DNA of 64,000 bases from a virus, in the IMG/VR virus record IMGVR_UViG_3300045971_000149, positions 93,926-157,925 of that record; one strand, 5' to 3'. Within the stretch, counting starts at the first letter, position 1. Each line of letters opens with the position of its first letter. The position numbers were made by a program, and so were the translations under genes. Positions 39,709-56,251 of this stretch are shown here, one piece after another. Below the pieces are notes generated by a model. That model was not told the DNA's origin, did not search any database, and saw only the letters and a list, made by a program, of their open reading frames with translations.

Positions 39709-39912
39709 ATGGCAACAGGTAAAGTAAAATGGTTTAGCGCCCCTAAGGGTTTCGGGTTCATTACCCCTGATAACGGTGGAGCAGACTTGTTTGCACACTT
39801 CAGTCAAATTAACTCGCAAGGATATAAGAGCCTAGACGAAGGTCAAGCAGTAACTTTTGAAGTTACGCAAGGCCAAAAGGGTCCTCAGGCTAGCAATATT
39901 CAGTTAGTCTAA
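39709..39912 (+). CDS. Cold-shock domain protein
   Basis: [21 protein letters not shown] and [10 protein letters not shown]. Confidence 0.96.
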
Positions 39913-39914
39913 AA

Positions 39915-40245
39915 GGTTATTGCTGTACGAAGCAAATAGAAATAAGTGGAACACCCGGGGGCAGTGCCCGGCATCTCCACCATAAGGGAAGTTATGAAAC
40001 ATTTAGAATGGTATCAGATATTGCTGTGTCTTGCAGTTCCGATAAACTATTTTTATTGGTGTGTATTACATAGTTTCTTTATGATGGGGATGACACAGGA
40101 TCGACTTCGCAAAGAGTACATAAGCAGACAGCACGACACAGATAGTCGTAAAAAGTAAAACAAAAACAACCGCAAACGATTCAGTTTACGCATTAGCAGC
40201 TTAACAGCCGCTTAGGGTAGTTATACCTCGTAACAGAAACTAACA
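39915..40245 (+). ncRNA. ssrA: Circularly permuted (two-piece) tmRNA
   Basis: Acceptor piece ends CATCTCC-A-CCA at 39982; coding piece starts GGGGATG at 40086 (G3:U70 pair); tag ANDSVYALAA-stop at 40172-40204; T-loop GGCAGTG; AACAGAA at 40232-40238. Outer ends approximate. Confidence 0.93.
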
Positions 40246-40269
40246 AGGACCCGCTTCGGCGGGTTTCTT
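40244..40269 (+). terminator. Intrinsic terminator after tmRNA
   Basis: ACCCGC-TTCG-GCGGGT followed by TTCTT. Confidence 0.85.
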
Positions 40270-47413: not shown

Positions 47414-47798
47414 AATAACATTAATCACACCGCCTGACATATACGAGAATTCGAACTTCAGTATTTTGTTCTTAGGGCTTAGTGAGACTGATCAAGATGA
47501 TGCAAGTCTCTGGTTAGGACAAAACGAAGGCTATCCGGAAACAAACTTTTACTACTACCAAGGTGAAGATAATTTGACTTGGTTGCTGTATGCATTAAAT
47601 AGAGCAGATGTAAAGTTCTTGAACTTCGACACAGATAGTGCTATAATTAATTTACTCGGCAGTTATATTCTAGGACGCCCGAATGTGTATTATAGCACAA
47701 AAGACCCTAGCATACAAGAACTGATGTCTCATATCAATAACCAATTTGTGCCCGATGTACAAACATTTTTAAAGAGAGCATTTAATGGAAAAGAATAA
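47403..47798 (+). CDS. Hypothetical protein
   Basis: 131-aa coupled ORF (LITPPD). Confidence 0.7.
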   Translation: MSNKITLITPPDIYENSNFSILFLGLSETDQDDASLWLGQNEGYPETNFYYYQGEDNLTWLLYALNRADVKFLNFDTDSAIINLLGSYILGRPNVYYSTKDPSIQELMSHINNQFVPDVQTFLKRAFNGKE

Positions 47799-49035
47799 GA
47801 ACGACGATCACCAATGTAGTTTTTGTGGAAAACACAAGGAAGACGTTGAAAAAATGATTGTTGGAGACGGCGCTGCAATCTGCAATGATTGTGTAGATCT
47901 ATGTACTAATATATTAGACGATAAAAAGGTAAAAGACTTTCCGTCTAAGGGTGATAAAAAGCAATTTAATCCCACAAAAATTAAAGACTTCCTTGACGAA
48001 TATGTTATCGGACAAGAGCGAGCAAAGATTGCGTTAAGTGTGGGAGTTGCTCAACACTTTAAGCGTGTGTTTAGTCCATCCAAGGATATTAAACTTGAAA
48101 AGACAAATGTGCTTATGCTCGGCCCTACAGGATGCGGCAAGACAATGATGGCAAAGAAGGTTGCAGAATTTCTCGATCTGCCGTTTGCAGTTTGCGATGC
48201 AACAGGGCTAACTGAAGCAGGATATGTCGGCGACGATGTAGAAAGTATTCTTATTCGATTGTTAGCAGTAGCTGACGGCGATGTAGAACGTGCAGAACAC
48301 GGTATTGTTTACGTCGATGAAATTGATAAGATTGCTCGTAAGGGCGAAAATATGAGTATCACCCGTGATGTGAGCGGTGAAGGTGTACAACAAGCATTGT
48401 TGAAAATTATCGAAGGCACAATTGCCCGGGTACCTGCAGGCGATAAGCGTAAGCATCCTAAGGGCGATATGATTGAAATTGACACTTCAAACATTTTGTT
48501 CATTTGTGGCGGCGCATTTGTGGGCTTAGATAAGCAAATTGCAAATCGCAAGGATGCAAACAGTATCGGCTTCCATACTCCTGCAAAGAAGAAAGACAAA
48601 TCAGAGAGCAGCTATCTAGACGACTTTACTACAAAGGATCTTATTAGCTTTGGACTTATTCCCGAGTTTGTGGGGCGCTTTGGACTTACAGTAAACGTTA
48701 ACGAACTAAGCGTCGAAGATTTAATGCAGATTCTTAAAGAACCTAAGAATAGCATTATCCAGCAGTACCAGTATATTTTTAAGTTAGACGGTGTTGAATT
48801 GAAGTTTGAAGATGAAGCACTTCGTGTTATTGCAGAAAAAGCAAAAGAACTTAAAACTAACGCACGTGGCCTAAAACAAATCATCGAAAAGATGTTGTTA
48901 AATTATCAATTTGAAGCGATGGACCTTGCAGAGCGCGGGTTAGAGCGAATTGTGATAACCAAGGATACAGCCCAAGGAGGCAAAGCTGTTTTAATTTTTA
49001 ATAAAGAGCATGGCAAAAAATCCGAACAGTCCTAA
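47785..49035 (+). CDS. clpX: ATP-dependent Clp protease ATPase ClpX
   Basis: C4 zinc domain, [34 protein letters not shown] and IGF loop. Confidence 0.96.
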
Positions 49036-49284: not shown

Positions 49285-49360
49285 GCGGTATTAGCTCAGT
49301 GGTTAGAGCGTGGACTTCTAAACTCCCGGGTCGAGAGTTCGATTCTCTCATATCGCACCA
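49285..49360 (+). tRNA. tRNA with CUA anticodon (putative amber suppressor)
   Basis: 76 nt; acceptor GCGGTAT/ATATCGC, D arm GCTC/GAGC, anticodon loop TT-CTA-AA, T arm GAGAG-TTCGATT-CTCTC, encoded CCA. The anticodon stem has two mismatches. Confidence 0.85.
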
Positions 49361-50813: not shown

Positions 50814-50975
50814 ATGAAACAACGCAAATTGATCAAAGAAGTTTATAAGGCTTGCATCGAGCACAATCTTGAGAAATTAGTTGAACTCCGTATTGAAGAG
50901 TTCCGCAAAATTTTAAAGAGAAAAGCAGAAGGTAAAGCATTTACTTCACCAAAATGGGCTATAGTACGTTTGTAA
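50814..50975 (+). CDS. Small basic hypothetical protein (53 aa)
   Basis: AAGGAG RBS; MKQRKLIKEVYKAC... Confidence 0.65.
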   Translation: MKQRKLIKEVYKACIEHNLEKLVELRIEEFRKILKRKAEGKAFTSPKWAIVRL

Positions 50976-51019: not shown

Positions 51020-51805
51020 ATGAAAGCCAAAACTTATCGCTCTATTTTTATCTCTGATGTACATTTAGGTACAAGGGACTGTAAAGCAGAACAACTAAAC
51101 AACTTCCTCAAACATAACTCCTGCGAAACGCTATATATGGTAGGCGATATTATAGATGCATGGCGTATTCAGCAAAACAAGTGGCGCTGGAAGCAAAGTC
51201 ATACAAATGTTGTCCGACGTGTGTTAGGACATGCAAAGCGTGGTACTCGCGTAGTCTATATAGCAGGCAATCACGACGAATTTCTAAGACCCATGATACC
51301 ATATGGGTTTTCTTTTGGGCATGTCGAAATTTGTAATCAAATAGAGCATATTGGTGCAGACGGCAAGCATTACCTAGTAGTGCATGGAGATTTATTTGAT
51401 GGAATAACACGATTAGCTCCTTGGCTTGCGTTCCTTGGGGATAAAGCATATGATTTTATCCTAAATCTAAATGGCAAGTTTAACTGGTTTCGCCACAAGA
51501 TGGGATTCGGGTATTGGTCACTAAGTAAATATCTCAAAGCGCGAGTTAAGAAAGCTGTAGACTTTATGTTTAAGTTTGAACAGAATTTAGCAGACTACTG
51601 TAAGAAGCGCGGATTTGACGGCATAATCTGCGGGCACATACACCACGCTGAAATTAAAGAAATTGACGGTATTACATATATGAACGACGGTGATTGGGTA
51701 GAATCAATGACTGCATTAGTAGAACATCACAACGGACGTTGGGAGATAATACATTGGACACAGGCAAGCGATGAAACAAAAGACGATACTGATAATAACA
51801 GATAA
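51020..51805 (+). CDS. Metallophosphoesterase, PlcP/LpxH-like
   Basis: SDVHLG, GDIID, GNHD, HGD, GHIH and NDGDWVES. Confidence 0.9.
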   Translation: MKAKTYRSIFISDVHLGTRDCKAEQLNNFLKHNSCETLYMVGDIIDAWRIQQNKWRWKQSHTNVVRRVLGHAKRGTRVVYIAGNHDEFLRPMIPYGFSFGHVEICNQIEHIGADGKHYLVVHGDLFDGITRLAPWLAFLGDKAYDFILNLNGKFNWFRHKMGFGYWSLSKYLKARVKKAVDFMFKFEQNLADYCKKRGFDGIICGHIHHAEIKEIDGITYMNDGDWVESMTALVEHHNGRWEIIHWTQASDETKDDTDNNR

Positions 51806-52775
51806 TTTACCGGACCAAATAAATGGCGTTGTCACGACTTACAAAAACATTGAGATTTGCGCGACTCGTGATAATTATAACGTTGTGGTGCTTCATCCCG
51901 GGTGGTTCAGCTATGTTGATTGCCCTCGCTACAACGAAGTCAAGATTACCTATCCGCGGCAGATGGGCAAGAAGATTGCGGAGATCGATCCGGATTATAT
52001 CCATATCGCCACAGAAGGTCCTCTTGGTATGTGGGCTAGAAAGTATCTTTCACTATATAATATTAGGCACAATACCGCTTATCATACTAAATTCCCTGAA
52101 GGGCTAAAAGCACTATTCGGAATACCGGAATCTATTACTTGGAAGTTTGTTCGTTGGTTCCACAAGCATAGCGGCAAGGTACTTACTACTACAGACTCAA
52201 TGGTTAAAGAATTGCAAGCCCACGGGTTTGATGGGGATATTATTCCTTGGACACGCGGAGTCGATAGAAGCATATTTTATCCCGACCATGCTCTTAACAA
52301 GCAGGTAACATTAGTATGTGTTAGCCGCGTAAGCAAAGAAAAGAATTTAGAAGATTTCTTTGAGTTGGACTATCCGGGCGCACGTAAGATTATGGTCGGT
52401 GACGGACCAATGCGAGCAGCATACGAAAAGAAATATCCGGATGTGGAATTCGTAGGTTTTAAAATTGGTGCAGATTTAGCAGAATATTACAGATTGGCAG
52501 ATGTGTTTGTATTCCCATCACGTTGGGAAACATTTGGCATTGTAATGATTGAAGCAATGGCGTGCGGCACGCCAGTTGCCGCTTATCCGTGTCAAGGTCC
52601 TGAAGATGTTATTGATGAAGGTGTCACCGGATGTATGGACGAAGACTTAACATCGGCAGTTAAAAGCGCCATACAGTTAGATAGACAAACTGTGTTAAAC
52701 GGTAGTATGCGTTGGAGTTGGGAAAATGCTTGGAAAATATTCCGCGATAATCTGATTGACTGTCGAAGCAGATAG
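51771..52775 (+). CDS. GT4 glycosyltransferase (Agt-like)
   Basis: QINGVVTT, HIATEGPLG, YHTKFPE, SRVSKEKN and ETFGIVMIEAMACGTPV. Confidence 0.92.
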   Translation: MKQKTILIITDNLPDQINGVVTTYKNIEICATRDNYNVVVLHPGWFSYVDCPRYNEVKITYPRQMGKKIAEIDPDYIHIATEGPLGMWARKYLSLYNIRHNTAYHTKFPEGLKALFGIPESITWKFVRWFHKHSGKVLTTTDSMVKELQAHGFDGDIIPWTRGVDRSIFYPDHALNKQVTLVCVSRVSKEKNLEDFFELDYPGARKIMVGDGPMRAAYEKKYPDVEFVGFKIGADLAEYYRLADVFVFPSRWETFGIVMIEAMACGTPVAAYPCQGPEDVIDEGVTGCMDEDLTSAVKSAIQLDRQTVLNGSMRWSWENAWKIFRDNLIDCRSR

Positions 52776-52979
52776 TGCTATACTAAATACATCATGCAAA
52801 TGTAGATCATCAACCATTTAACAATGCCCGAGCTGTGTAGCGAGCAATCGCTTACGTTTGGGCTTTCTTTTGATTGGAGGAAATATGTAGATTCATATTA
52901 ACGGCCCTCCTTAAGTGGATTACACTTTTCAAGTCAGTAATCAAATTTCCAAACACTTAACATCAGGAGAAATCAAATG
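52756..52979 (+). promoter_or_regulatory. Promoter and structured attenuator-like leader with two ATG-TAG uORFs
   Basis: TTGACT-N17-TATACT; uORFs at 52794 and 52885; terminator-like and RBS-masking hairpins. Confidence 0.7.
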
Positions 52980-53300
52980 GAAAACCAATTTAACATCACT
53001 AAAGAACAATACCTTACTATGCTTTCAACTTGGAGAGCAAAGAAGGCGCACGATGCAGCGGATCAAATCCTCTACAACATCTTGCGAACAAAGCCTGCAG
53101 ATAGGGGCTTTACTGCAAAGGGTAAAAACATACAAGGAAACGATCCTTGGTTCGCGTACCACAATGCGTTGTTCCTTGCTCGTAATCGCGTGAGAATTAC
53201 AAGTTCCGGACTGGAAGCACGTAAAGAAGCGTTTAAGAAAACTTTCGGATTCGATGCTCCCGACGATATCGCAGCAAAGTTAGAAGGAGCAAAGAAATGA
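52977..53300 (+). CDS. Hypothetical protein
   Basis: AGGAG RBS; ILYNILRTKP..RGF; ATGA-coupled to the Pth2-like gene. Confidence 0.75.
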   Translation: MENQFNITKEQYLTMLSTWRAKKAHDAADQILYNILRTKPADRGFTAKGKNIQGNDPWFAYHNALFLARNRVRITSSGLEARKEAFKKTFGFDAPDDIAAKLEGAKK

Positions 53301-53602
53301 ACCCGTACATGTATTTGTTCGTTCGAAGCGACTTGTCGGCACCGCAACAGATTGTTCAAACTGCACATGCTGTAGACGAGATAGGAATGCGTTACAAATC
53401 CGATGGTACTAATTACATGGTATTGTGTGGAGCAACTAACGAAGAACACCTGCTCACAATTGCAGAATGTTTGGACAAAAACGAGATCGATTACGAAATG
53501 TTCTTTGAGCCAGATATCGGTGCGCACACTGCGATTGCAACTCGCCCATTAAGAGGCACTGAGAGAGCACCGTTAAAGAAGTTTCGGCTAAAGACGGCTT
53601 GA
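53297..53602 (+). CDS. Peptidyl-tRNA hydrolase 2 (Pth2)-like protein
   Basis: YLFVRSDL...QIVQTAHA...VL...FFEPDI...TAIATRP matches the Pth2 pattern. Confidence 0.8.
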   Translation: MNPYMYLFVRSDLSAPQQIVQTAHAVDEIGMRYKSDGTNYMVLCGATNEEHLLTIAECLDKNEIDYEMFFEPDIGAHTAIATRPLRGTERAPLKKFRLKTA

Positions 53603-53627
53603 CAAAAGGTAAAACCTGTGTTATACT
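53599..53627 (+). promoter_or_regulatory. Sigma70-type promoter
   Basis: TTGACA-N17-TATACT. Confidence 0.8.
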
Positions 53628-53655: not shown

Positions 53656-54087
53656 ATGGAATACGCAATTGAAGCAAGTAATAAGAAAATTGACAAACTG
53701 TTTGAAGCAATTATGCCGTCCATAGTTGACCAACTCGGACTTACTAATAGCAGAAAAGCAGTTCTAATCAAAGTTACTCCGGACACTCCCGAAGGGTTTA
53801 TAGGTGCAACTTATGATCTTAAATTTGCAGATTGCATGCTTGTGCTCATTACTCCTCCAAAGCGAGTTACAGAATCATCATTGTTAGATATCGCACTAAC
53901 TCTTGCACACGAAATGGTCCATGTAAGACAACTTTCCAAAGGTATTATGCAGATGTTACCCAATAATGCTCGCATATGGAAGGGTAAGAAGTACACTAAA
54001 AAAACAAAGTATTTGGATCAGCCTTGGGAATTGGATGCATTTGCCAGACAAGAAATTATTTTGCGAAGGGCTATCGAACTCTATTGA
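53656..54087 (+). CDS. Zinc metallopeptidase-like protein (HExxH)
   Basis: LAHEMVHVRQ...PWELDA. Confidence 0.75.
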   Translation: MEYAIEASNKKIDKLFEAIMPSIVDQLGLTNSRKAVLIKVTPDTPEGFIGATYDLKFADCMLVLITPPKRVTESSLLDIALTLAHEMVHVRQLSKGIMQMLPNNARIWKGKKYTKKTKYLDQPWELDAFARQEIILRRAIELY

Positions 54088-54112
54088 CAGCGGGTAATAA
54101 ACCTGCTATAAT
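54084..54112 (+). promoter_or_regulatory. Sigma70-type promoter
   Basis: TTGACA-N17-TATAAT. Confidence 0.85.
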
Positions 54113-56222: not shown

Positions 56223-56251
56223 TTGACTAGACCGGTAAAACCTGCTATAAT
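56223..56251 (+). promoter_or_regulatory. Sigma70-type promoter
   Basis: TTGACT-N17-TATAAT. Confidence 0.8.

What the first reader, a model, noticed from the sequence alone, without database searches (positions are those of the whole stretch)
52784..52901. A second amber-interrupted, near-leaderless uORF spanning a terminator-like hairpin in the same leader
Seen: ATG CAA ATG TAG at 52794-52805, just after overlapping sigma70 (-10 at 52779-84) and TAAATA (52784-89) motifs. After the TAG the frame stays open for 31 more codons, to TAA at 52899-901. It crosses a hairpin (GCCCGAGC/GTTTGGGC enclosing AGCGA-GCAA-TCGCT, 52826-52863) followed by TTTCTTTT. The upstream GT4 gene also ends in TAG (52773-75) in this same frame. 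Inference: read-through would drive a ribosome over the hairpin and prevent termination, giving a transcriptional gate in series with the translational one. Two ATG-TAG-AT motifs within 90 nt is striking in a window where TAG stops are rare.
Basis: partly seen in the sequence, partly recalled or inferred. Interest (0 to 1): 0.8.

Follow-up and report, generated by a model that had tools for sequence, protein, structure and literature searches.

The report
Amber-gated leader ORF spanning a terminator
A phage early operon for a peptidyl-tRNA-hydrolase-like protein starts with a tiny reading frame that stops at an amber codon but is kept open across a terminator hairpin in every relative found, so the phage's own amber-suppressor tRNA may switch the operon on.

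Summary

- **Leader layout.** An early sigma70-type promoter (52756-52784) is followed by a 3-codon mini-ORF ending in TAG (52794-52805). A 20-nt spacer then leads to a 38-nt GC-clamped hairpin with a U-run (52826-52871).
- **Unusual position.** This is the only one of 52 terminator-like elements in the 158-kb genome that lies just downstream of a consensus promoter.
- **Conservation.** Five further metagenomic lineages keep the TAG-ended mini-ORF and a hairpin, although two have a completely different hairpin sequence. The stem shows compensatory pairs.
- **Reading frame.** The frame after the TAG has no stop in 6 of 6 lineages. In 5 of 6 it runs in phase into the second SD-ATG-TAG...Pro-Pro-TAA uORF. 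The window is the exception, 2 nt short.
- **Suppressor tRNA.** A tRNA(CUA) gene co-occurs in this genome, in the one close relative with enough context, and in phage GAP32. GAP32's homologous gene has an amber-interrupted leader.
- **Downstream gene.** The second gene of the operon has a Pth2 fold.

Best reading: a leader ORF gated by amber read-through, a pyrBI-like ribosome-over-terminator attenuator. Translation, termination and suppression are all untested. A new variant of a known kind.

The parts
52756..52784 (+). Early sigma70-type promoter (-35 TTGACT, 17-nt spacer, TG, -10 TATACT); predicted start near A 52791
   Evidence: 10 of 12 matches, TG present. One search shows it belongs to a family of ~45 promoters with a shared start-region. 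Promoters sit in the same position in L001, L026 and L027. The start site is inferred, not mapped.
52794..52805 (+). 5'-proximal mini-ORF Met-Gln-Met-amber with no Shine-Dalgarno sequence (near-leaderless)
   Evidence: The 17-nt box 52794-52810 is identical in L001, L017/L018 and L026. L027 has Met-Met-Gln-amber and L037 has Met-Gln-amber. The stop is TAG followed by A in 6 of 6 lineages.
52806..52825 (+). A/U-rich unstructured spacer between the amber codon and the hairpin (20 nt)
   Evidence: predict it unpaired. The spacer is 19-23 nt in five lineages. A ribosome stopped at the amber would therefore not cover the stem.
52826..52863 (+). 38-nt hairpin with a GCCC/GGGC clamp and an inner 5-bp stem capped by a GCAA loop
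   Evidence: Stem energy is -21.0 kcal/mol; folds. The outer helix is 95.8% paired in 6 sequences, with covariation 0.45 against 0.25 in shuffles (2 of 500). It is exactly 38 nt in four lineages, although L001 has a different sequence.
52864..52871 (+). U-run (7 of 8 T) completing an intrinsic-terminator-like element; it can also pair with the Shine-Dalgarno of the second uORF or of the main gene
   Evidence: Tail score -4.78. Pairing with the main ribosome site appears, and pairing with the second uORF's site in L017/L026. The U-run is weaker in L027 and L029.
52806..52901 (+). Read-through frame: 31 sense codons after the amber, ending at TAA 52899-901
   Evidence: The homologous frame is stop-free in 6 of 6 lineages and in phase with the second amber in 5 of 6. 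The window is 2 nt short in the segment 52872-52884.
52876..52914 (+). Second element of the same leader: GGAGG, then ATG-TAG followed by seven codons ending Gly-Pro-Pro and TAA (subject of the sister note)
   Evidence: It is conserved with synonymous changes in L017, L019, L026, L027 and L024.
52977..53602 (+). Regulated operon: a 107-aa protein of unknown function (phrog_22448) and a 101-aa Pth2-fold protein
   Evidence: The second protein's model has pLDDT 89.7, and its top 12 PDB matches are all Pth2-family, TM 0.53-0.77 (0.7 or more for eleven). The next consensus promoter is at 53599-53627.
49285..49360 (+). Phage tRNA with anticodon CUA, the presumed reader of the leader's amber codons
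   Evidence: (Rfam tRNA, 58 bits). One search shows the cloverleaf; the anticodon stem has two mismatches. A counterpart lies 1.8 kb upstream of the leader in L001 and another in GAP32.

Best explanation
This is the 5' half of a translated regulatory leader for an early two-gene operon (an unknown 107-aa protein plus a Pth2-fold hydrolase).

Proposed sequence of events:
1. Transcription from the early promoter starts 0-3 nt before an AUG.
2. A ribosome makes a two- or three-residue peptide and meets UAG in a fixed UAG-A context.
3. If release factor 1 wins, the ribosome leaves about 20 nt before the hairpin. The hairpin plus U-run then forms, and most transcripts end near 52871 or stay folded.
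4. If the phage's tRNA(CUA) decodes the amber, the ribosome runs through the hairpin. This keeps the hairpin from forming, so RNA polymerase and ribosomes reach the second amber uORF and the genes.
5. In most relatives the same ribosome arrives in phase at the second amber and ends on Pro-Pro-stop.

The leader therefore acts as a serial (two-amber) sensor of nonsense suppression.

Shown: the anatomy, its conservation, the covarying hairpin, the constrained open frame and the co-occurring tRNA(CUA).

Inferred: the start site, leaderless initiation, termination at the hairpin, suppression, and the direction of the effect.
For: - **Coordinates and promoter:**
- **Unique placement:** the only terminator-like element of 52 that lies less than 150 nt after a consensus promoter, and the second most stable on its strand.
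- **No alternative promoter:** none lies between the hairpin and the genes.
- **Conserved as a unit:** the module is kept behind four different upstream genes.
- **Always amber:** the stop is TAG followed by A in 6 of 6 lineages, although TAG ends only about 12% of genes.
- **Open frame:** the frame after the TAG has 0 stops in 6 of 6 lineages, and the other frames carry stops. Shuffle probabilities are 0.30, 0.22, 0.43, 0.41, 0.13 and 0.26. The segment length is a multiple of 3 in 5 of 6.
- **Peptide not conserved:** only openness is selected, as for regulatory leader ORFs.
- **Hairpin replaced but preserved:** L001, L027 and L037 have a different hairpin sequence but the same clamp. L001 keeps the 38-nt length, L027 has 45 nt, and length was not measured for L037. 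Compensatory pairs are present.
- **Geometry:** the amber lies 19-23 nt before the stem. This fits published distance-dependence of ribosome interference with terminators (PMC4824070).
- **No competing RNA structure:** the 5' region has no alternative pairing with the terminator. That points to occlusion by the ribosome rather than an RNA switch.
- **Suppressor tRNA:** tRNA(CUA) is present here, in L001 and in GAP32.
- **Distant homologues:** Mimasvirus and Eneladusvirus relatives keep an amber-interrupted leader with Gly-Pro-Pro after the amber, encoded by different proline codons.
Against: - In the window itself the read-through frame is out of phase with the second uORF.
- The first AUG has no Shine-Dalgarno sequence, and the start site is only predicted.
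- Only about 80 nt separate the start from the U-run, and no pause hairpin is predicted. A ribosome may not load in time to affect the polymerase.
- The U-run is weak in L027 and L029, so the hairpin may not terminate in all lineages.
- L037 has no recognisable promoter, and its mini-ORF is the tail of a longer ORF.
- The tRNA's anticodon stem has two mismatches, and its function is untested.
- The evidence rests on six metagenomic lineages, three of them closely related.
- No transcript data could be obtained.
Confidence: 0.45

Rival explanations
1. The gate is translational only. The hairpin does not terminate transcription to a useful degree. Read-through ribosomes instead unfold the hairpin and the pairing of the U-run with the next ribosome-binding site. 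They then arrive in phase at the second amber, so the first mini-ORF feeds the second uORF and controls translation of the main gene.
For: - The frame is in phase with the second amber in 5 of 6 lineages, and spacing is constrained (84, 84, 84, 90 and 111 nt).
- The U-run pairs with the second uORF's ribosome site in L017 and L026, and with the main site in the window.
- The U-run is weak in L027 and L029.
- This reading avoids the kinetic problem of coupling within 80 nt.
Against: - The GC clamp directly followed by a U-run is kept in four lineages and scores as a strong terminator.
- The window has lost the phase but keeps everything else.
Confidence: 0.2
2. The element is a constitutive attenuator or terminator with an untranslated conserved 5' box. 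The hairpin simply damps a strong early promoter and ends upstream transcripts. The 17-nt box is conserved as a promoter-proximal or protein-binding element, and the open frame is a by-product.
For: - The box follows the shared start-region of the promoter family and loosely resembles the family's usual leader.
- A similar ATGTAGAT core recurs 85-90 nt downstream, as operator pairs do.
- There is no Shine-Dalgarno sequence.
Against: - The open frame in 6 of 6 lineages, with phase kept through hairpin replacement, is unlikely by chance.
- In L027 the box is rearranged (Met-Met-Gln instead of Met-Gln-Met), yet it stays a 3-codon ORF ending in TAG-A. That fits a reading frame better than a binding site.
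- The box is not palindromic.
Confidence: 0.2
3. The promoter-to-terminator unit is a gene for an ~80-nt small RNA. Its conserved single-stranded 5' end acts on another RNA or protein, and downstream gene expression is incidental read-through.
For: - The architecture is typical of bacterial and phage small RNAs: a strong promoter, a conserved unpaired 5' 35 nt, and a stable terminator hairpin with a U-tail.
Against: - No complementary target inside the phage genome scores better than shuffled controls (best -19.6 against up to -20.8 kcal/mol).
- There is no Rfam match.
- This reading does not explain the open, in-phase frame.
- The operon has no other promoter.
- The host genome is unknown, so host targets could not be tested.
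Confidence: 0.1
4. The mini-ORFs are minigenes that shed short peptidyl-tRNAs. The leader would then sense peptidyl-tRNA hydrolase or release-factor capacity rather than suppressor tRNA, giving feedback on the Pth2-like gene.
For: - The ORFs have one to three sense codons before a stop.
- The downstream gene has a Pth2 fold.
- Short ORFs are known to promote peptidyl-tRNA drop-off (PMC2490762 and PMC10192219, listed; lambda bar minigenes from my own knowledge).
Against: - This reading does not explain why the stop is always amber, why a tRNA(CUA) co-occurs, or why the frame after the stop stays open.
Confidence: 0.05

Closest known systems
pyrBI (pyrL) attenuator of Escherichia coli
   Same: A leader ORF runs through an intrinsic terminator. 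A ribosome close behind the polymerase prevents hairpin formation, and no alternative antiterminator helix is needed. (Established knowledge; discussed in PMC4824070.)
   Different: There the signal is UTP-sensitive polymerase pausing, and the leader ORF has a ribosome-binding site and no internal stop. Here the decision point is an in-frame amber codon 20 nt before the stem, the ORF is near-leaderless, and no pause element was identified.
trp/his/pheL-type leader-peptide attenuators
   Same: A ribosome reads regulatory codons in a short leader ORF. The supply of a particular tRNA decides whether a terminator forms.
   Different: Those use sense codons, charged-tRNA shortage and competing antiterminator/terminator helices. 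Here the codon is a stop, the tRNA is a phage suppressor whose presence (not absence) lets the ribosome proceed, and no competing helix was found.
prfB (RF2) in-frame UGA autoregulation and the tnaC leader
   Same: The efficiency of decoding a stop codon in a short upstream frame sets expression of downstream genes.
   Different: prfB uses +1 frameshifting inside the gene. tnaC uses a stalled terminating ribosome that blocks Rho. Neither involves a suppressor tRNA or an intrinsic terminator inside the frame.
Engineered suppressor-tRNA feed-forward circuits (PMC7969014)
   Same: The logic is the same: the target is expressed only once an amber-suppressor tRNA has accumulated, which cuts leak and adds delay.
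   Different: Those are synthetic, with the amber placed in the target gene itself. Here the system would be natural, with the ambers in a leader and a terminator as the output device.
Phages with TAG-recoded late genes and tRNA(CUA)
   Same: A phage-encoded amber-suppressor tRNA changes what TAG means during infection.
   Different: This genome is not recoded. TAG ends about 12% of ORFs, and no evidence of in-frame TAG in long genes was seen. The only conserved in-frame ambers found are in this leader.
Lambda pR'-tR' unit (6S RNA) with Q antitermination
   Same: A strong promoter is followed within about 100-200 nt by an intrinsic terminator that gates all downstream genes, with a short RNA as the default product.
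   Different: Read-through there is caused by a DNA-loaded antiterminator protein. Here a translating ribosome is proposed.
Start-stop elements and minigenes (E. coli start-stops, 10.1101/520783; lambda bar)
   Same: Very short ORFs in 5' leaders act through the ribosome rather than through their product.
   Different: Those have a ribosome-binding site and nothing conserved beyond the stop. Here the frame beyond the stop is conserved open.

Membership tests
Intrinsic (Rho-independent) terminator | Stable GC-rich stem-loop | tested here: met
   Stem energy -21.0 kcal/mol with a GCCC/GGGC clamp; covariation in the outer helix.
Intrinsic (Rho-independent) terminator | U-run immediately 3' of the stem | tested here: met
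   7 of 8 T at 52864-71, tail score -4.78. Weaker in L027 and L029.
Intrinsic (Rho-independent) terminator | Transcripts actually end there | not testable with these tools
Ribosome-mediated transcription attenuator (pyrBI type) | Leader ORF extends through the terminator | tested here: met
   This holds only if the amber is read through. The frame is open across the hairpin and U-run in 6 of 6 lineages.
Ribosome-mediated transcription attenuator (pyrBI type) | Polymerase pausing that synchronises the ribosome and the polymerase | tested here: inconclusive
   No pause hairpin is predicted upstream of the terminator. Sequence-dependent pauses cannot be judged here.
Leader-peptide attenuator (trp/his type) | Mutually exclusive antiterminator and terminator helices | tested here: not met
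   The 5' 35 nt are predicted unpaired and do not compete with the terminator's 5' arm.
Leaderless mRNA | AUG at or within a few nt of the transcript's 5' end, with no Shine-Dalgarno sequence | tested here: inconclusive
   The AUG lies 7-9 nt after the -10 in five lineages, and there is no Shine-Dalgarno sequence. The start site is not mapped.
T-box or other described RNA leader | Match to a curated covariance model | tested here: not met
   No Rfam family matched at gathering score. Only chance-level hits appeared at E up to 10.
Stop-codon-recoded phage (TAG as sense) | In-frame TAG throughout long (late) genes, and few genes ending in TAG | tested here: not met
   TAG ends 24 of 195 crude ORFs. 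The TAG-joined frames listed were not followed up, and several lie opposite the strand that carries the early promoters.
Trans-acting small RNA | Own promoter and terminator plus a complementary target | tested here: inconclusive
   A promoter and a terminator are present. No target in the phage genome beats shuffled controls. The host is unknown.
Pth2 peptidyl-tRNA hydrolase (downstream gene 53297-53602) | Pth2 fold | tested here: met
   Model pLDDT 89.7. The top 12 PDB hits are all Pth2-family, TM 0.53-0.77 (0.7 or more for eleven). Sequence evidence is sub-threshold (19.9 bits against a cut-off of 23; E 0.12). Catalysis is untested.

The most novel reading that the evidence does not exclude
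This would be a natural sensor of nonsense suppression. The phage times or doses an operon for translation housekeeping (a Pth2-like hydrolase plus a tRNA-cluster protein) by making its leader ORF pass two in-frame amber codons that only the phage's own tRNA(CUA) can read. The first amber gates an intrinsic terminator and the second gates a Pro-Pro-stop uORF. The simpler one-amber form of this leader is conserved in cultivated Mimasvirus and Eneladusvirus jumbo phages. That would also give the long-unexplained suppressor tRNAs of non-recoded phages a regulatory role.
Probability: 0.35. Interest if true: 0.85.

Novelty: new variant of a known kind. Interest (0 to 1): 0.72.

Why it matters
Many large phages that are not recoded carry amber-suppressor tRNAs, and nobody knows why. 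A conserved leader whose only sensible reading requires amber read-through would give these tRNAs a concrete regulatory target.

It would add a new input, nonsense suppression, to ribosome-mediated attenuation. It would also be a natural counterpart of the suppressor-tRNA feed-forward circuits built in synthetic biology.

The idea is directly testable with small reporter constructs. For the simpler one-amber leader it can be tested in cultivated phages such as GAP32, CBB or XbC2. The link to a Pth2-fold protein, a phage tmRNA and a ClpX-like gene in the same region suggests a phage-run programme for ribosome rescue.

Tried and rejected
- **Close DNA relatives in GenBank phages:** none found.
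- **IMG/VR scans:** scans with the 17-nt box, the second-uORF block and the Pro-Pro block found only one related contig. The other 17-mer hits were unrelated coding sequence.
- **Failed or unavailable look-ups:** the first locus search failed. Several relatives could not be fetched. L028 had no upstream DNA.
- **Small-RNA target search:** no target inside the phage scored better than shuffled controls.
- **Rfam:** nothing.
- **Late-promoter reading of TAAATA:** rejected. The motif is the shared early start-region.
- **GT4 TAG in frame:** specific to this genome. In L001 the upstream stop is TAA and out of frame.
- **Coding signature between the ambers:** none. The peptides are not conserved, so this is not a small protein gene under a TAG-sense code.
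- **Antisense ORF as the cause of the open frame:** rejected. The minus frames carry stops.
- **Structure of the 107-aa protein:** the model was poor (pLDDT 57.6) and was not searched.
- **PDB sequence search of the 101-aa protein alone:** uninformative.
- **Literature:** searches found no description of such a leader.

Full report
**Setting.** The window is the last 64 kb of a single 157,925-bp virus record with 40.7% G+C. The region around the finding carries a cluster of translation-related genes:
- a permuted tmRNA at 39868-40247;
- a ClpX-like gene at 47785-49035;
- a tRNA with anticodon CUA at 49285-49360;
- a metallophosphoesterase and a GT4 glycosyltransferase;
- a two-gene unit at 52977-53602.

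The first gene of that unit (107 aa, phrog_22448) has no known function, and its model was poor. The second gene (101 aa) gives a confident model (pLDDT 89.7). Its 12 best PDB matches are all Pth2-type peptidyl-tRNA hydrolases, with TM 0.53-0.77 (0.7 or more for eleven). By sequence it is only sub-threshold.

**The observation.**
- The -10 at 52779-84 belongs to a full promoter: -35 at 52756-61, a 17-nt spacer and TG.
- The genome has about 45 such promoters. All are followed by a shared A(C/A)ATACAT start-region.
- That places the likely start at A 52791, 3 nt before the first ATG.
- It also explains the 'TAAATA' motif without invoking a late promoter.
- TAG is the least-used stop (24 of 195 crude ORFs) but is not exceptional.
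- The hexamer ATGTAG is common.

Within the window alone the pattern is only mildly unusual.

**The hairpin.** It has a stem energy of -21.0 kcal/mol and a good U-run. That makes it the second most stable terminator-like element on its strand. It is the only one of 52 in the genome that lies within 150 nt downstream of a consensus promoter, 41 nt after the -10.
- Elsewhere, the short hairpins found in the minus-strand early-gene block overlap the -35 of the next promoter.
- No other acceptable promoter lies between the hairpin and 52977. Expression of the two genes therefore has to pass it.
- The 35 nt before the hairpin are predicted unpaired and offer no competing helix.
- No Rfam family matches.

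**Relatives.** Homologues of the 107-aa protein led to five further lineages with enough upstream DNA, plus partial ones:
- L001, from a 353-kb viral contig;
- L017/L018;
- L026 and L027;
- L037;
- partial: L029 and L019/L020.

The gene upstream of the leader differs among them. It is GT4 here, an unrelated ORF in L001, a 53-aa gene in L017, a zinc-ribbon gene in L026 and L027, and another ORF in L037. The leader is nevertheless kept as a unit.

What the lineages share:
- The 17 nt at 52794-52810 are identical in L001, L017 and L026.
- L027 has the same codons in another order (Met-Met-Gln-amber), and L037 has Met-Gln-amber.
- The stop is TAG followed by A in all six lineages.

A reordered box that stays a two- or three-codon ORF ending in amber looks like a reading frame rather than a binding site.

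The hairpin across lineages:
- L001, L027/L029 and L037 have a different sequence but keep the GCCC/GGGC clamp.
- It is exactly 38 nt in four lineages.
- The outer helix is 95.8% paired.
- One position shows AU, CG, UA, GU and UG. Covariation is 0.45 against 0.25 in shuffles (2 of 500), and at most 0.18 when the partner column is slid.

**The reading frame.**
- In the segment between the first amber and the second ATG-TAG, the frame that continues from the amber has no stop in 6 of 6 lineages.
- The two other forward frames have at least one stop in all six. The three reverse frames have stops in all but one case.
- Dinucleotide shuffles leave the frame open with probabilities of 0.30, 0.22, 0.43, 0.41, 0.13 and 0.26. 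Taking the three close lineages as one event, the joint probability is about 0.003.
- The segment length is 84, 84, 84, 90 and 111 nt in the five relatives. Their first amber is therefore in phase with the second amber and with the Pro-Pro-TAA end.
- The window has 79 nt. A 3-nt gap lies before the hairpin and a 2-nt gap lies after the U-run. Its read-through frame therefore ends at TAA 52899-901 instead.
- The encoded peptides are not conserved. Openness, not the product, is what is kept, which is the usual mark of a regulatory leader ORF.
- In L037 the mini-ORF is the last three codons of a longer upstream ORF.
- In the window the GT4 stop is an in-frame TAG 18 nt upstream. In L001 it is not, so that detail is not general.

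**The suppressor.** A tRNA(CUA) gene lies 3.4 kb upstream of the leader here and 1.8 kb upstream in L001.

More distant homologues of the 107-aa protein (33-40% identity) sit inside the tRNA clusters of cultivated jumbo phages of the genera Mimasvirus and Eneladusvirus.
- Their leaders read: ribosome site, ATG (ATG) CTA, TAG, then codons that include Ser-Thr-Gly-Pro-Pro.
- In five of the six phages this frame is in phase with the main start codon.
- The two prolines are CCT CCT in GAP32 and CCA CCG in XbC2. That speaks for selection on the peptide after the amber.
- GAP32 has an annotated suppressor tRNA whose anticodon is CUA.

An amber-interrupted leader in front of this gene, together with a phage tRNA(CUA), is therefore old and widespread. 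The promoter, mini-ORF and hairpin module examined here is an addition found in one clade. The genome itself is not recoded.

**Mechanism.**
- A ribosome stopped at the first amber would cover roughly 12-15 nt beyond its P site, which is general knowledge about ribosome footprints.
- The stem begins 19-23 nt after the TAG in five lineages, so termination at the amber leaves the hairpin free.
- In E. coli an intrinsic terminator was almost fully repressed when it lay a few nt after a stop codon or inside a translated frame. Its efficiency was variable (0.12-0.8) at 17-18 nt and maximal beyond about 27-30 nt. Uncoupling translation abolished the effect (PMC4824070).
- Read-through of the amber would thus turn a terminator standing clear of the ribosome into one inside a translated frame.

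This is the pyrBI design with a stop codon as the switch. I hold it as the best reading at about 0.45.

The weak points are:
- the unmapped start site;
- initiation without a Shine-Dalgarno sequence;
- the short time window for a first ribosome, with no predicted pause;
- the weak U-runs in L027 and L029;
- the imperfect anticodon stem of the tRNA.

A purely translational relay is the main variant, at 0.2. In that version read-through ribosomes open the hairpin and the U-run/ribosome-site pairing seen. They then arrive in phase at the second amber.

Three further readings are less likely, because none explains the conserved amber and the open frame:
- an untranslated attenuator with a conserved box (0.2);
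- an 80-nt small RNA (0.1);
- a minigene sensor of peptidyl-tRNA hydrolase capacity (0.05).

**Comparison with known systems.** The element works like a ribosome-mediated attenuator of the pyrBI kind. It also shares the 'stop-codon decoding as input' idea with prfB and tnaC. It fails the defining feature of trp-type attenuators, which is competing helices. It is not a T-box or any Rfam family. It is not evidence of a recoded genome. Its logic matches engineered suppressor-tRNA feed-forward loops (PMC7969014). Literature searches found no natural example.

**Verdict.** I rate it a new variant of a known kind, with interest 0.72. All functional steps remain to be shown. The sister note on the same leader (e1-5680253) covers the second amber uORF. 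The two are best treated as one leader ORF with two ambers.

Noticed in passing
whole genome; e.g. window 53599-53627, 54084-54112, 56223-56251: About 45 near-consensus early promoters (TTGACA, 17 nt, TATAAT) each carry a shared start-region and leader that runs into a ribosome site and ATG. Most lie in a block of small minus-strand genes upstream of the window.
   Followed up: partly
L030, L031, L032, L034, L035, L036 (XbC2, GAP32, Kaldavass, CBB, fHe-Yen9-04, BF): In cultivated Mimasvirus and Eneladusvirus jumbo phages the homologous gene sits inside the tRNA cluster. It is preceded by a ribosome site, ATG(ATG)CTA, TAG, then codons with Ser-Thr-Gly-Pro-Pro. In five of the six phages this frame is in phase with the main ATG. 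GAP32 has a tRNA(CUA) at 293273-293347.
   Followed up: partly
window 53297-53602: The 101-aa protein has a confident Pth2 (archaeal/eukaryotic-type peptidyl-tRNA hydrolase) fold, although its Pfam score is below threshold.
   Followed up: yes
L025 89-164: ARAGORN reports a tRNA with a four-base anticodon (ttca), possibly an opal-reading tRNA. It lies directly upstream of a distant relative of this leader.
   Followed up: no
L021 and L023, about 130-65 nt before the main ATG: In these distant relatives a 51-codon upstream ORF ends in TGA. In the same frame 11 codons follow, ending Arg-Pro-Pro-TAA, at the same distance from the main start as the Pro-Pro-TAA of the window.
   Followed up: no
genome minus strand, e.g. 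G000 65612-65588, 58875-58854, 50472-50449: In the early-gene block, short terminator-like hairpins contain the -35 hexamer of the next promoter in their loop or stem. Terminator and promoter overlap there.
   Followed up: no
window 49285-49360: The tRNA(CUA) has only three Watson-Crick pairs in its anticodon stem; positions 27:43 and 31:39 are mismatched. The only other tRNA in the record is a non-initiator tRNA(CAT).
   Followed up: no
L037 228-335: The spacer holds a remnant resembling the 5' arm of the L017-type hairpin, followed by a complete L001-type hairpin. It looks as if one hairpin had been inserted next to a decayed one while the frame stayed open.
   Followed up: no
window 50814-50975 and 51020-52775: In relatives (L017 and the P0011 contig) the 53-aa gene lies directly before the leader. 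The metallophosphoesterase and GT4 pair therefore looks like an insertion between them in this genome.
   Followed up: no
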